A DNA stretch of 64,000 nucleotides from an uncultured Gemmatimonadota bacterium (GTDB lineage: Bacteria; JAAXHH01): positions 3,456,001 through 3,520,000 of the forward strand of contig OX638340.1 of assembly GCA_951812955.1 (NCBI GenBank). Direction: 5' to 3'. Position 1 is the first letter of the stretch. Every line of letters begins with the position of its first letter. The notes under the pieces were generated by a model, which saw nothing but the letters and a program-made list of their open reading frames with translations, searched no databases and was not told the DNA's origin. This document shows positions 4,168-54,145 of this stretch, one piece after another. The translations under genes and the position numbers were made by a program.

Positions 4168-5343
4168 ATGACACGCTTGTGTCTTAGACTCGTGTGCATT
4201 GCGTTACTGCCGGCATCCCTGTTTGTGCTTTCCACCTGCGGCAAGGATAGTTCCACCGCCCCAAGCGCTCCAACACCCCCTGCCCCGGTACCCGCCAGCA
4301 TCGAAATCACACCGGCGTCCGCTACGTTGAACGCCATCGATCAGACCGTTCAGTTGGCCCCAATGGTACTTGACGAGAATGGTGCTGAGATCGCCGATGC
4401 TTCGGTTACGTGGACTAGTGGCGCCGTGGACGTTGCGACGGTTAACGATCAAGGCCTGGTCACGGCGGTCAACAACGGGTCCGCGGTGATCACAGCACAG
4501 TCGGGCAGTCTTTCGGCATCGGCGAGTATCACCGTCTCGCAGGTGCCGGTCCGTATCGTAATCGAGATCCCGACCACGGGCCGGCTCATGCAGACGGACA
4601 CGGGCCAGAACATACTGGTAGCCACGGTACAGGATAGAAACGGACATCCGGTGGCCGGAGCGGAAGTGACATGGTCGAGCAGCGATGAATCCGTAGCGAC
4701 CGTCAGCGATCAAGGAGTGGTAAACGAGGTCTCGAGCGGGAGAACTCAGATCACAGCCCGATCGGGAGACCTGTCAGACTCGGTTAATTATGGTGTCTCG
4801 GCAAGGATTGCACTGGCCAGGTTGTATGAGGCGACAAATGGTCCGGATTGGACACAAAATACGAACTGGTTGACTGATGCACCGGTGGAAGAATGGCACG
4901 GTGTTACGGTCGGCTTGTTTGGACAGCTTACGATACTGAACCTGAACAATAACAACCTGGGTGGTTCGATTCCGATGGATGTGGGACAACTGTGGCCTCT
5001 TGAAGAACTGAATCTGGGATCCAATCGGATATCGGGCGAGATTCCCGCAACGATAGGAAAGCTGGAATATCTCGGCAAACTGAACCTGAGCGACAACCAG
5101 TTGTCAGGTGAGATACCGGCCGAACTTGGTTACCTTGCTAACCTCCGGGGTTTATTCCTACAAGACAATGAATCATTGAGCGGACCTCTGCCTGATTCGT
5201 TTACGAATCTCGAGCTTCAAACCCTGAACCTGGATGGAACAGAGCTTTGCGTGCCGGCCAGCTCGGAGTTCCAGACCTGGATCGAAGGGATTGAAAACGT
5301 AACCGCTTCCCCGTGCCCCAATCCGGAGACGGAAGTCCCCTGA
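4168..5343 (+). CDS. LRR lipoprotein (lipobox, 2x Big_2 Ig-like domains, one block of ~4 plant-type LRRs with Cys-pair C-cap)
   Basis: Signal plus lipobox LFVLSTCGKDS. The Big_2-like repeats are ITPASATLNAIDQTVQL...VTWTSG...VITAQSGSLSASASITVS. The N-cap is LARLYEATNGPDWTQNTNWLTDAPVEEWHGVT. The 24-residue LRRs are L.L.NN.L.GSIP...G.L..L. The C-cap is SGPLPDSFTNL...GTELCVPASSEFQTWIEGIENVTASPC. The 5' leader CCGAAAGGATTGTCATGACACGC is conserved with the paralogs at 6924 and 11943. Confidence 0.85.
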   Translation: MTRLCLRLVCIALLPASLFVLSTCGKDSSTAPSAPTPPAPVPASIEITPASATLNAIDQTVQLAPMVLDENGAEIADASVTWTSGAVDVATVNDQGLVTAVNNGSAVITAQSGSLSASASITVSQVPVRIVIEIPTTGRLMQTDTGQNILVATVQDRNGHPVAGAEVTWSSSDESVATVSDQGVVNEVSSGRTQITARSGDLSDSVNYGVSARIALARLYEATNGPDWTQNTNWLTDAPVEEWHGVTVGLFGQLTILNLNNNNLGGSIPMDVGQLWPLEELNLGSNRISGEIPATIGKLEYLGKLNLSDNQLSGEIPAELGYLANLRGLFLQDNESLSGPLPDSFTNLELQTLNLDGTELCVPASSEFQTWIEGIENVTASPCPNPETEVP

Positions 5344-5451
5344 CGGCACCTTACATTGTGGTCTGAGCTGGTTTTCCGAGTGAATTGAAGCGGGATACAC
5401 CGCGCACAAGCCGTTATTCATAGCGTACATCCTAGTAGTTACGGCAGTGAA

Positions 5452-5500
5452 AAGAACACAGACGGCGGCAAGCGCCTGGATGAATACGATCTGTTTCCGA
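5452..5500 (-). pseudogene. 5'-terminal remnant of a small TM/coiled-coil gene (paralog of 5850..6227)
   Basis: gacggcggcaagcgcctggatgaatacgatctgtttc here is near-identical to gacggccgccagcgcctggatgaatacgatcagtttc at 6183-6221, which is the N-terminal coding region of ORF 5850..6227 on the minus strand. There is no intact ORF. Confidence 0.4.
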
Positions 5501-52310: not shown

Positions 52311-52381
52311 CGGTTTGGTGATTCTGGACATCGGTTGGCTACACCACGCGGCGATGCTGAACATCGCGGCAGTCTACGTGT

Positions 52382-54145
52382 TTATTCGTCCGGACAGCCT
52401 GCTATTTCGCTCAAGTCCCCAATTTCGCTCAGCCAGTCCTGGAATACCTCGGATAGCGGTATGCATAGTTGGGTCCCATTCACGTGCAGGCTTTCCAGTG
52501 TGAGACGCGCAAGCGACTCGGGCAGAGGTCCGGTGAGTTCCGGGTTCGAGGCCACGTTGAGCCGAGTCAGATTGCGAAGCCCGCCGATTTCCGGCGGCAG
52601 CGATCCCATTAACCGGTTGGCCGATAGGTCCAGGTGGATGAGCGCTTGCAGTTGTCCGAATTCCGGGGGTATGGAGCCCGATAACGCGTTATCTCGAAGG
52701 ACAAGCATTTCGAGTGCTTTCAAAAGTTCAAGCTCCGCGGGAATGTGCCCGGTCAACTGGTTTCCACCGAGATTGAGTATTTCGAGACGCCCTGACAGAC
52801 CGATTTCCGCAGGTATGGTTCCCGTAAACTCGTTTCCTTCCAGGTTCAACGCTTCCAAAATGGTCAAATGACCGATTGAAAGCGGAATACTGCCGGAAAG
52901 ATGATTTTCGCCGAGGTTCAACACCGTGAGACCAACGAGTTGCCCGAGTTCATCCGGAAGCGGTCCGCGGAGACCGTTCCCGTTCAACTCCAGCCGGGTG
53001 ACCATGCCGTCGGCGTCGGTCGTGACGCCATACCACGCGTGGAGCGGGGCGTTGGACAGCCAGTTCGCCTTCTCTGTCCAGTCCGGTCCGCCCGTTGTAT
53101 TGTAAAACACAATGAGCGCATTCCGATCCGGACTTGAAACGACCGTTGTCACGTTGAAGTGCTGCGTGGCGCTCAAACCGTGCGGGTCGGTCGCGCTGAC
53201 CGAAATCGTCGCTCTGCCTGCCGATACGGATCGGATGGTGGTCCGTTCTTCCTTTGCTTCGACCGTGGCCACCTGGTCGTCGCTGGATACAGCCGTATAT
53301 TCCAGCTTGTCGCCATCCGGATCGAGAAACGCGCCGGATACGTCCAGCTCCTCCGCCGGTCCTCCCTCGACCAGCCTTAGATCTGCTATCATTCCCACCG
53401 TCTGTGGCCGGGTGTTCATCCCCGTCCCCATGACAGTGACGCGTATGGACTGCGTGGCGCTCAGGCTATCCGGATCGGTTGCCGTGACCGTCACGGTCGC
53501 TTCGCCGGTTGACACGGCACGGATGGTCACGTCGGCGCCGGATGCCGCCGCCGTGGCTACCTGGTCGTCGCTGGATTCCGCGGAATAGGTCAACTCGTCG
53601 TCGTCCGGGTCGCGGAAAGCGCCGGTAACGTCCAGCTCTACCGATACTCCGATTTCCGTCAGCACCTGTGGCGCGATCTCGCCCACTGCTTCCGGGGGCC
53701 GGTTTGGAACGGGCGCCGATACGGTCACCGTTATCCCGTTCGAGACGTTGCCCGAACGGGCGGTGATCCGGGCAGTGCCGTTGCTCACGGCCGTAACCAG
53801 ACCACCGGAACTCACGCTGGCTACACTCATGTTGCTGGATGACCAGGACACCGTCGCCCCAGTGATCGGACTGTTGTTCTGATCGTTAACCGTGGCGGTC
53901 AGTTGCGCCGTCTGACCCAGGGCGGTCAGCGTCACGGCAGCCGGTGTGATCCGGATACTGGTCGGTACAGCTTGTACCGGTGGCGGCGTTGGAGGCGGAG
54001 TGGGTGGTGGCGTTGGTGTTGGAGGCGGTGGAGCAGGCGGAGTGCCCGGCGACGTCGGTGTCGTCGAACCACCTCCGCCACACGAAACCAGTACCGAAAA
54101 GACCCATAATACGATAACTGATGAGATCAAGCGGGACGCATGCAA
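52382..54145 (-). CDS. LRR lipoprotein with Big_2 and two cadherin-like domains (upstream gene of the CARDB-metzincin gene; probable operon)
   Basis: MHASRLISSVIVLWVFSVLVSCGGGGS lipobox. Pro-rich linker PPAPPPPTPTPPPTPPPTPPP. Big_2 domain (VSWSSSNMSVASV...). Cadherin-like units NRPPEAVGEIAPQ.../NTRPQTVGMIADL.... N-cap ALIVFYNTTGGPDWTEKANWLSNAPLHAWYGVTTDADGMVTRLEL. ~9 plant-type LRRs. C-cap ...GTQLCIPLSEVFQDWLSEI...C. The stop lies 71 bp upstream of the next gene's start. Confidence 0.85.
   Translation of the reverse strand: MHASRLISSVIVLWVFSVLVSCGGGGSTTPTSPGTPPAPPPPTPTPPPTPPPTPPPVQAVPTSIRITPAAVTLTALGQTAQLTATVNDQNNSPITGATVSWSSSNMSVASVSSGGLVTAVSNGTARITARSGNVSNGITVTVSAPVPNRPPEAVGEIAPQVLTEIGVSVELDVTGAFRDPDDDELTYSAESSDDQVATAAASGADVTIRAVSTGEATVTVTATDPDSLSATQSIRVTVMGTGMNTRPQTVGMIADLRLVEGGPAEELDVSGAFLDPDGDKLEYTAVSSDDQVATVEAKEERTTIRSVSAGRATISVSATDPHGLSATQHFNVTTVVSSPDRNALIVFYNTTGGPDWTEKANWLSNAPLHAWYGVTTDADGMVTRLELNGNGLRGPLPDELGQLVGLTVLNLGENHLSGSIPLSIGHLTILEALNLEGNEFTGTIPAEIGLSGRLEILNLGGNQLTGHIPAELELLKALEMLVLRDNALSGSIPPEFGQLQALIHLDLSANRLMGSLPPEIGGLRNLTRLNVASNPELTGPLPESLARLTLESLHVNGTQLCIPLSEVFQDWLSEIGDLSEIAGCPDE

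What the first reader, a model, noticed from the sequence alone, without database searches (positions are those of the whole stretch)
4168..54145. Expanded family of six LRR lipoproteins built from plant-specific-type LRR modules
Six genes encode lipoproteins with the same plan. Five are on the plus strand, at 4168, 6924, 11943, 34537 and 41799. The sixth, 52382-54145, is on the minus strand. Each has a lipobox (STCGKDS-like), a poly-Pro linker, 1-4 Big_2 domains, and then one to nine LRR modules. The LRR unit is the 24-residue L..L..L.L..N.LSG.IP..LG.L..L class that characterises plant LRR-RLK ectodomains. Each module is preceded by a cap resembling the plant LRRNT_2 domain (ALYNATDGPNW..NWLSD.PLGEWYGVTTD..GRVTEL.L; compare plant ...W.GVTCD..GRVTSLDL). 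Each is closed by a Cys-pair cap (GTGLCVP.D.AFQAWL.GI...GVVNC). The largest gene is 7.2 kb (2410 aa) with about 9 modules. Plant-type LRR ectodomain modules with both caps, repeated as cassettes in bacterial lipoproteins, are uncommon. They suggest a surface binding or adhesion repertoire.
Basis: partly seen in the sequence, partly recalled or inferred. Interest (0 to 1): 0.8.

Follow-up and report, generated by a model that had tools for sequence, protein, structure and literature searches.

The report
Plant-style LRR surface lipoproteins, bacterial family
A marine Gemmatimonadota genome carries six lipoproteins built from self-contained leucine-rich-repeat modules that look like plant receptor ectodomains, but the module is a very common bacterial building block, so the find is a good example of an under-described family and not a rarity.

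Summary
The repeat is exactly the 24-residue plant-specific class. An AlphaFold model of one module (pLDDT 93.7) superposes end to end on plant SERK and FLS2 ectodomains. It gives no Pfam LRRNT_2 hit, has no Cys pair, and cap-only profiles find nothing in PDB. Only a weak colinear profile-profile similarity to plant caps remains. The module is not uncommon: a cap-only profile finds 22,430 protein clusters, some with up to 20 caps, including cultured marine Bacteroidota. A neighbouring CARDB lipoprotein and many relatives share that domain. The closest genomes are Palauibacterales MAGs, several from sponges. The likeliest role is a fast-evolving surface binding repertoire that in some members tethers a protease. 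Verdict: new member of a known kind, moderate interest.

The parts
4168..5343 (+). g1: 391-aa lipoprotein with a Pro-rich spacer, 2 Big_2 domains and 1 capped LRR module (N-cap at aa 210, C-cap ends at aa 383)
   Evidence: 59% identical to g3
6924..11750 (+). g2: 1608-aa lipoprotein with a poly-Pro spacer, 3 Big_2 domains, 3 capped LRR modules (7848-8729, 8733-9110, 9120-10289) and a C-terminal M66-like metzincin domain (10290-11750; HELGHNMGLLH)
11943..13514 (+). g3: 523-aa lipoprotein with a poly-Pro spacer, 2 Big_2 domains and 1 capped LRR module of about 10 repeats
   Evidence: 69-77% identical to the N-terminal 612 aa of g2
34537..41769 (+). g4: 2410-aa lipoprotein with 1 Big_2 domain and 10 tandem capped LRR modules (9 with a C-cap; module 2 lacks one); no poly-Pro spacer
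   Evidence: module 8 (39532-40158) modelled at pLDDT 93.7
41799..43454 (+). g5: 551-aa lipoprotein with a Pro-rich spacer, 2 Big_2 domains and 1 capped LRR module that contains an irregular insertion
52382..54145 (-). g6: 587-aa lipoprotein with a long poly-Pro/Thr spacer, 1 Big_2 domain, 2 Big_9/PKD-type domains and 1 capped LRR module
46815..52364 (-). Related lipoprotein (1849 aa) with no LRR. It has the same leader (FTC|GKDSP), Big_2, 8 CARDB repeats, Big_9, and the same C-terminal metzincin domain as g2 (45% identity over 494 aa)

Best explanation
These genes encode a locally expanded, fast-diverging family of envelope-anchored lipoproteins in a marine Gemmatimonadota bacterium close to Palauibacterales. 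The N-terminal lipidated Cys fixes the protein to a membrane. A Pro-rich spacer and 1-3 Ig-like domains act as a stalk. The stalk presents between one and ten independent LRR solenoids, each sealed by its own N-cap and disulfide-type C-cap and each about the size and shape of a plant SERK ectodomain. The concave beta-face of each solenoid is the variable surface that binds a macromolecular ligand, such as host matrix, particle or prey-surface protein or glycoprotein. In g2 and in many relatives the same binding modules carry an M66-like metzincin protease, so there the LRRs would hold the enzyme on its substrate. Shown: the architecture, the LRR class, the module fold, the position of the variability, the protease fold and zinc-binding motif, the abundance of the family, and the local expansion. 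Inferred: lipidation, surface exposure, ligand binding, proteolysis, and what the ligands are.
Against: There is no experimental evidence for lipidation, localisation, binding or proteolysis in this family. Position -1 of the lipobox is Thr in g1-g4, which is outside the classical pattern. How Gemmatimonadota would move lipoproteins to the cell surface is not known (my own knowledge). Variable concave positions are a general property of LRRs, so they do not prove diversifying selection. No ligand candidate emerges from the neighbourhood. AlphaFold was trained on plant LRR structures, which may pull the caps towards the plant shape.
Confidence: 0.55

Rival explanations
1. They are sponge-symbiont 'eukaryote-like repeat proteins' in the narrow sense. 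These would be host-directed factors that mimic host LRR proteins to block phagocytosis or immune recognition, as has been shown for ankyrin-repeat proteins of sponge symbionts.
For: The closest genomes are sponge-derived Gemmatimonadota MAGs (SB0665_bin_8, Ca. Palauibacter irciniicola SB0668_bin_12, COS4_bin_2). LRR repeat proteins are reported as enriched in sponge MAGs compared with seawater MAGs (PMC8163846). Collagen-repeat proteins in the same window are another eukaryote-like feature.
Against: The window's own source is not on record. Palauibacterales also live in sediments and saline soils (PMC10469786). The same capped module occurs in cultured free-living marine Bacteroidota, Maribellus sediminis and Aquimarina rubra, and in 22,430 clusters. 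A lipid anchor and disulfide-type caps fit an extracellular tethered protein, not an effector delivered into host cytosol. Sponges are not known to use plant-class LRR receptors (my own knowledge).
Confidence: 0.15
2. They are a nutrient-capture apparatus. The LRR modules would grab extracellular proteins or glycoproteins (mucin, collagen, matrix) for degradation by the attached or neighbouring proteases, in the way surface lipoproteins of Bacteroidota utilisation loci work.
Against: Five of the six LRR lipoproteins have no catalytic domain. No TonB-dependent transporter or peptide-uptake genes were found among the window ORFs that were scanned. The 10-module g4 looks more like an adhesin than an enzyme accessory.
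Confidence: 0.2
3. They are plant or algal receptor ectodomains that a bacterium acquired recently by horizontal transfer.
For: The repeat class is the plant one, with 30-39% identity to plant ectodomains in structural alignments. A published claim of transfer of plant-specific LRRs between plants and bacteria exists (Miyashita et al. 2013, cited in PMC9471246 and PMC5122149). GC3 of g1-g3 (0.58-0.65) is well below that of neighbouring housekeeping genes (0.79-0.89).
Against: The N-cap is too diverged for the LRRNT_2 model and lacks its cysteines. The C-cap has no detectable plant counterpart in sequence. The bacterial family is very large and spans several phyla. The closest relatives of every gene are bacterial. 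The architecture (lipobox, Big_2, M66) is bacterial.
Confidence: 0.05
4. They are periplasm-facing lipoproteins with a structural or envelope role and are not exposed on the surface.
For: A lipobox alone does not specify surface exposure. LptD and Omp85-family envelope genes lie in the window.
Against: Long Pro-rich spacers, Ig-like stalks and up to ten LRR solenoids (2410 aa) are typical of extended surface adhesins and would hardly fit in a periplasm. Big_2 plus LRR combinations are known from surface proteins such as internalins and the Leptospira LRR proteins that appear among the structural hits.
Confidence: 0.05

Closest known systems
Plant LRR receptor ectodomains (SERK/BAK1, FLS2, PEPR1, PGIP)
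   Different: The bacterial N-cap has no Cys pair and gives no LRRNT_2 HMM hit. The C-cap (GTxLCxPxxxxFQxWLxxIxxxxxxxxC, with a helix) has no detectable sequence match in plants. The bacterial proteins have no transmembrane helix or kinase. They are lipid-anchored, have Ig-like stalks, and carry up to ten modules in tandem.
Bacterial plant-specific-class LRR proteins (Miyashita, Kuroki, Kretsinger and Matsushima 2013, Nat Sci 5:580)
   Same: That paper reports the plant-specific LRR class in bacterial proteins, according to its title and its citations in PMC9471246 and PMC5122149.
   Different: The text is not held in the library, so I could not check whether capped tandem cassettes, lipoproteins or Gemmatimonadota are covered.
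Pfam LRR_10 (PF18805)
   Same: It is the only Pfam model that matches the N-cap region (profile positions 10-67 of 67). g4 as a whole scores 44.6 bits against a cutoff of 30.
   Different: Single caps score only 14-23 bits, and 5 of 10 modules match at E<=1. It does not appear in the precomputed Pfam lists of the homologs.
Slit (animal guidance protein with four tandem LRR domains, each with its own caps)
   Different: Slit has a different LRR class (typical) and different cap families (LRRNT and LRRCT). The resemblance in architecture is analogy (my own knowledge).
Bacterial LRR surface proteins (Listeria internalins, Leptospira LIC LRR proteins)
   Different: They have other LRR classes, no plant-type caps and a single LRR domain. 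Only 153 residues align, against 195-199 for plant proteins.
Peptidase M66 (StcE mucinase) and adamalysin-type metzincins
   Different: Identity to all of these is only 13-16%. Only part of the M66 profile (165-251 of 306) is matched. In most homologs the Gly of the motif is Ser. Fusion to LRR modules is not a described feature of StcE (my own knowledge).
Eukaryote-like repeat proteins of sponge symbionts
   Same: LRR proteins are reported as enriched in sponge-associated MAGs, Gemmatimonadota among the phyla studied (PMC8163846). The closest relatives of these genes come from sponge MAGs.
   Different: That literature counts Pfam LRR hits and does not describe the class, caps, cassette structure, lipid anchor or protease fusion. 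The module is also found outside sponges.

Membership tests
Plant-specific (PS) LRR class | Repeat length of 23-25 residues | tested here: met
   Successive strict matches are 24 residues apart in 46 of 55 cases, and three more are 48 apart.
Plant-specific (PS) LRR class | Consensus LxxLxLxxNxL(t/s)GxIPxxLGxLxx (as given in PMC2946307) | tested here: met
   Over 80 units: G13 in 80, P16 in 78, I15 in 68, G20 in 73, S or T at position 12 in 70, N9 in 76 (consensus quoted).
Plant-specific (PS) LRR class | Solenoid geometry closest to plant LRR structures | tested here: met
Pfam LRRNT_2 (PF08263), plant N-terminal cap | Match to the family HMM | tested here: not met
   No hit for the whole proteins at E<=0.01, for isolated caps at E<=10, or for 10 modules at E<=1. 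The precomputed Pfam lists show it in 0 of 120 bacterial homologs and 120 of 120 plant SERK-type proteins.
Pfam LRRNT_2 (PF08263), plant N-terminal cap | Conserved Cys pair (C.W.GV.C) | tested here: not met
   None of the 17 window caps has it. One homolog cap (P0071, 'CKWYGVSC') does.
Pfam LRRNT_2 (PF08263), plant N-terminal cap | Same position and fold: a helix, then a strand leading into the first repeat | tested here: met
   The model has a helix at 2-13 and strands at 37-49. It aligns with OsSERK2 over 195 of 209 residues. Sequence alignments are colinear with the N-caps of BAK1, TMK1 and carrot AFP.
Pfam LRRNT_2 (PF08263), plant N-terminal cap | Cap-only sequence similarity above chance | tested here: inconclusive
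   hhalign P is 0.0055, and 0 of 200 shuffles (global) or 4 of 200 (local) reach the observed score. HMM searches of PDB with cap profiles find nothing.
Pfam LRR_10 (PF18805) | Match to the family HMM above its cutoff of 30 bits | tested here: inconclusive
   g4 summed scores 44.6 bits. Single caps score 13.9-22.6 bits.
Bacterial lipoprotein (signal peptidase II substrate) | Signal peptide ending in a lipobox with an invariant Cys | tested here: met
   All six proteins have it. The Cys and the following GKDS or GGDS are conserved in 58 homologs, many with canonical A or G at -1. Thr at -1 in g1-g4 is non-canonical.
Bacterial lipoprotein (signal peptidase II substrate) | Lipid modification and membrane anchoring | not testable with these tools
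   This needs biochemistry, such as globomycin sensitivity or mass spectrometry.
Big_2 (PF02368) | Match to the family HMM above its cutoff | tested here: met
   Scores are 26-93 bits against a cutoff of 22.8 in all six proteins.
Peptidase M66 / metzincin (g2 C-terminus) | HMM match, HExxHxxGxxH zinc-binding site, Met-turn, metzincin fold | tested here: met
Peptidase M66 / metzincin (g2 C-terminus) | Proteolytic (mucinase) activity | not testable with these tools
   This needs an enzyme assay.
Sponge-symbiont eukaryote-like repeat proteins | Encoded by a sponge-associated genome and enriched relative to free-living relatives | tested here: inconclusive
   The closest genomes are sponge MAGs, but the window's own source is unknown, and the module also occurs in free-living marine bacteria. 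Enrichment was not measured.
Anti-phage defence systems (PADLOC) | Match to any defence protein model | tested here: not met
   Five of the six proteins were scanned (g4 was not) and none hit at E<=0.001.

The most novel reading that the evidence does not exclude
The 'plant-specific' LRR ectodomain (repeat class plus N-cap) is not plant-specific. On this reading it is one branch of an ancient, very large bacterial family of capped surface modules, and plants or their algal ancestors obtained the receptor ectodomain from bacteria. In marine Gemmatimonadota and Bacteroidota the cassettes would form a rapidly diversifying surface recognition repertoire, comparable in logic to plant receptor-like proteins.
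Probability: 0.12. Interest if true: 0.75.

Novelty: new member of a known kind. Interest (0 to 1): 0.35.

Why it matters
The LRR class that textbooks call plant-specific has a very large bacterial counterpart, with at least 22,430 protein clusters carrying the cap. That counterpart comes as self-contained capped cassettes, which bacteria string together and fuse to Ig-like stalks and proteases. This matters for three questions: where plant receptor ectodomains came from, how uncultured marine and sponge-associated Gemmatimonadota interact with hosts or food, and whether these small stable modules could serve as engineered binders. For this particular window the value is as a clear, well-populated example, not as a discovery of something rare.

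Tried and rejected
- Exact look-up of g5 in public assemblies found nothing, so the source sample stays unknown.
- The afdb50 fold library was not available.
- Cap-only HMM searches of PDB sequences found no hits at E<=10. This covered 17 N-caps, 60 diverse N-caps and 16 C-caps.
- NCBIfam gave only far-below-cutoff LRR matches (XopAE, XopAC, internalins) and nothing for the protease domain.
- PHROGs gave only generic Ig-like and LRR matches.
- PADLOC gave nothing.
- PDB sequence search with the protease domain gave only a non-significant ADAM17 active-site match (E 0.18). The fold search was needed to place it.
- The key prior paper (Miyashita et al. 2013) is not held in the library.
- The Palauibacterales paper does not mention LRRs, peptidases, proteases or adhesins.
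- I considered and rejected an assembly artefact or very recent amplification for the 10 modules of g4. The DNA copies are only 60-82% identical.
- I considered and rejected additional hidden LRR genes. All 17 N-cap motifs in the six frames lie in the six genes.
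Full report
1. WHAT IS THERE

- Leader. All six proteins begin with a basic n-region and a hydrophobic h-region ending in a Cys: LSTC|GKDS, ITTC|GKDS, LVTC|ARDN, LTSC|GKDS and LVSC|GGGG. 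Thr at position -1 in g1-g4 is outside the classical lipobox. In 58 full-length homologs the same Cys follows the h-region, often with canonical A or G at -1, and is followed by the same GKDS or GGDS. I therefore read these proteins as signal-peptidase-II substrates.
- Spacer. Five of the six then have a Pro-rich spacer. g4 does not.
- Domains. Pfam finds Big_2 and the general LRR models in all six. g6 also has two Big_9/PKD-type domains.
- Modules. The LRR part is organised in modules. An N-cap (xDRxALVALYNATDGPNWxxxxNWLSDxPLxEWYGVTTD) is followed by the repeats and then a C-cap (GTGLCxPxDAxFQxWLxGIxxxxGVVNC). There are 17 N-caps (1, 3, 1, 10, 1, 1) and 16 C-caps; g4 module 2 lacks one. A six-frame scan finds the N-cap motif nowhere else in the window.
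The corrections are ten modules in g4, not about nine; no poly-Pro in g4; and at most three Big_2 copies.

2. REPEAT CLASS AND MODULE FOLD

Successive repeats are 24 residues apart in 46 of 55 cases. Over 80 units the consensus is LxxLxLxxNxLSGxIPxELGNLxN, with G13, P16, I15 and G20 almost invariant. This is the published plant-specific consensus LxxLxLxxNxL(t/s)GxIPxxLGxLxx (PMC2946307).

phmmer of one module against PDB sequences gives plant receptor kinases as the best hits: GSO1 8.8e-153, then PEPR1 and FLS2.

3. ARE THE CAPS THE PLANT CAPS?

- The Pfam LRRNT_2 model does not match the whole proteins, the isolated caps at E<=10, or ten modules at E<=1.
- None of 120 bacterial homologs carries PF08263 in the precomputed Pfam lists. 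All 120 plant SERK-type proteins do.
- No window cap has the plant Cys pair.
- Profiles built from caps alone (17 window N-caps, 60 diverse N-caps, 16 C-caps) find nothing in PDB sequences at E<=10.
- On the other side, a 77-residue query of cap plus one repeat aligns colinearly with the plants' own N-caps: BAK1 query 6-77 to chain 6-77, carrot antifreeze protein 2-75 to 32-105, and TMK1 3-75 to 28-96.
- A cap-only profile-profile comparison with 83 plant SERK caps gives a global score of 15.4 (38 columns, 34% identity, P 0.0055), against 2.6+-2.1 for 200 column shuffles, none of which reaches it. In local mode, 4 of 200 shuffles do.
- The only Pfam model touching the cap is LRR_10, which is below its cutoff for single caps.

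My reading is that the N-cap is the positional and structural equivalent of LRRNT_2 and probably a distant relative. It forms a separate, cysteine-free bacterial subfamily. The C-cap shares only the 'G(T/N)xxLC' start with plants and is otherwise distinct.

4. HOW COMMON, AND IN WHICH ORGANISMS

A search with g3 finds more than 2,700 relatives. The named ones are mostly Gemmatimonadota MAGs, with a few binned as Gammaproteobacteria or Chloroflexi. Of the best 120, 91 have at least one N-cap motif and 47 have two to four.

The nearest genomes are Gemmatimonadetes SB0665_bin_8 (70% identity), Ca. Palauibacter irciniicola, COS4_bin_2 and Longimicrobiales MAGs, plus Calditrichaceae and Bacteroidota MAGs. 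Palauibacterales live in sponges, marine sediments and saline soils (PMC10469786).

The 39-position N-cap profile, run against 1.84 billion cluster representatives, finds 22,430 proteins at E<=0.001, 8,098 at E<=1e-10 and 1,099 at E<=1e-30. The best protein has 20 caps in 2,901 residues. Two of the top ten carry names and come from cultured marine Bacteroidota, Maribellus sediminis and Aquimarina rubra.

So capped plant-class cassettes are a common bacterial building block. Plant-specific LRRs in bacteria were also reported before (Miyashita et al. 2013, cited; the text is not held). LRR proteins are a recognised enriched class in sponge MAGs (PMC8163846).

- A seventh family member. The 1849-residue lipoprotein next to g6 (46815-52364, minus strand) has the same leader and the same protease domain (45% identity), but carries CARDB repeats in place of LRRs. 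The family is therefore modular: leader, stalk, then a choice of binding repeats, with or without the protease.

6. LOCAL EVOLUTION

g3 is 69-77% identical to the N-terminal part of g2, and g1 is 59% identical to g3 but with fewer repeats.

The slot between acetyl-CoA-synthetase-like and thiolase genes is syntenic in two MAGs. L002 has one LRR lipoprotein there, L001 has two, and the window has three plus a regulator. The flanking genes are 95% (thiolase), 73% (LptD) and 68% (ACS) identical to L002, while the LRR gene is only 49% identical.

GC3 is 0.58-0.65 in g1-g3 and 0.67-0.71 in g4-g6, against 0.79-0.89 in the conserved neighbours. Within g4 the modules are 60-82% identical at the DNA level, so they are old duplications and not an artefact.

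Within the repeat, entropy is highest (3.2-3.8 bits) at the strand positions that form the concave face, and lowest at the scaffold positions.

7. MOST LIKELY FUNCTION

Taken together, these are envelope-anchored, probably surface-exposed proteins. Their stalks present small, stable, individually capped binding modules with variable concave faces. Some members tether a metzincin protease to whatever the modules bind.

The ligands are unknown. Host matrix in sponges and protein or glycoprotein food are the two obvious candidates, and they are listed as rivals. A recent plant origin is unlikely, given how far the caps have diverged and how large the bacterial family is. No defence-system model matches the five proteins scanned.

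8. VERDICT

The description is accurate. The 'plant-type' label is right for the repeats and for the overall module shape. The claimed LRRNT_2 identity fails its own test, and the claim of rarity is wrong. I rate this a new member of a known kind with moderate interest. The main open point is the evolutionary relation between this large bacterial family and plant receptor ectodomains.

Noticed in passing
window 46815-52364 (-): An 1849-aa lipoprotein with the same leader as the LRR genes (FTC|GKDSP), Big_2, eight CARDB repeats, Big_9, and a C-terminal metzincin domain 45% identical to that of g2. The same protease is thus mounted on two different repeat scaffolds in one locus.
   Followed up: partly
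window 14414-16807 (+) and 30764-33259 (+): Two 52%-identical hybrid GAF-PAS-histidine kinase-receiver-OmpR-type regulators. One lies just after the g1-g3 cluster and one just before g4-g5. tblastn with both found no match in any of the related loci L001-L010, the syntenic L002 included, so they may have been duplicated or moved together with the LRR genes.
   Followed up: partly
window 1527-21801 compared with L002 7213-16733 and L001 4288-11533: The gene order ACS, LRR lipoprotein(s), thiolase, LptD is conserved. The number of LRR genes in the slot is 1, 2 or 3. LRR gene identity is 49%, against 95% for the adjacent thiolase.
   Followed up: yes
window 4168-13514, 34537-43454, 52382-54145: The LRR lipoprotein genes have much lower third-position GC (0.58-0.71) than neighbouring housekeeping genes (0.79-0.89). 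This fits a flexible or weakly expressed gene set, or acquisition from elsewhere.
   Followed up: partly
window 23067-24599 (+) and 25418-26452 (+): Two proteins with collagen triple-helix repeats, the second fused to a trypsin-like peptidase domain. This is another eukaryote-like feature in the same region. L002 has a collagen-repeat gene at the syntenic position.
   Followed up: no
window 26693-30154 (+): A 1153-aa protein with weak Calx-beta and autotransporter beta-domain matches, possibly another surface protein.
   Followed up: no
window 5850-6227 (-): A small ORF (125 aa) between g1 and g2 with a hydrophobic N-terminus and REEMREEH-type repeats, overlapped by an antisense ORF. It is unclear whether it is a gene.
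   Followed up: no
protein P0071, residues 302-340 (homolog of g3): One bacterial N-cap reads WMSSESVCKWYGVSCR, so it has the plant-type Cys pair. It could be an intermediate form between the cysteine-free bacterial cap and LRRNT_2.
   Followed up: no
window 41799-43454 (g5), aa about 300-335: The LRR run of g5 is interrupted by an irregular Pro-rich stretch (FSTPFLPAIFPPSWDPVPNPLC), reminiscent of the island regions of some plant LRR receptors.
   Followed up: no
homologs of g3, N-termini: The residues after the lipobox Cys are strikingly conserved (GKDS[PS]T or GGDS) across homologs. This could be a sorting signal for surface export, as acidic residues after the Cys are in Bacteroidota (my own knowledge).
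   Followed up: no
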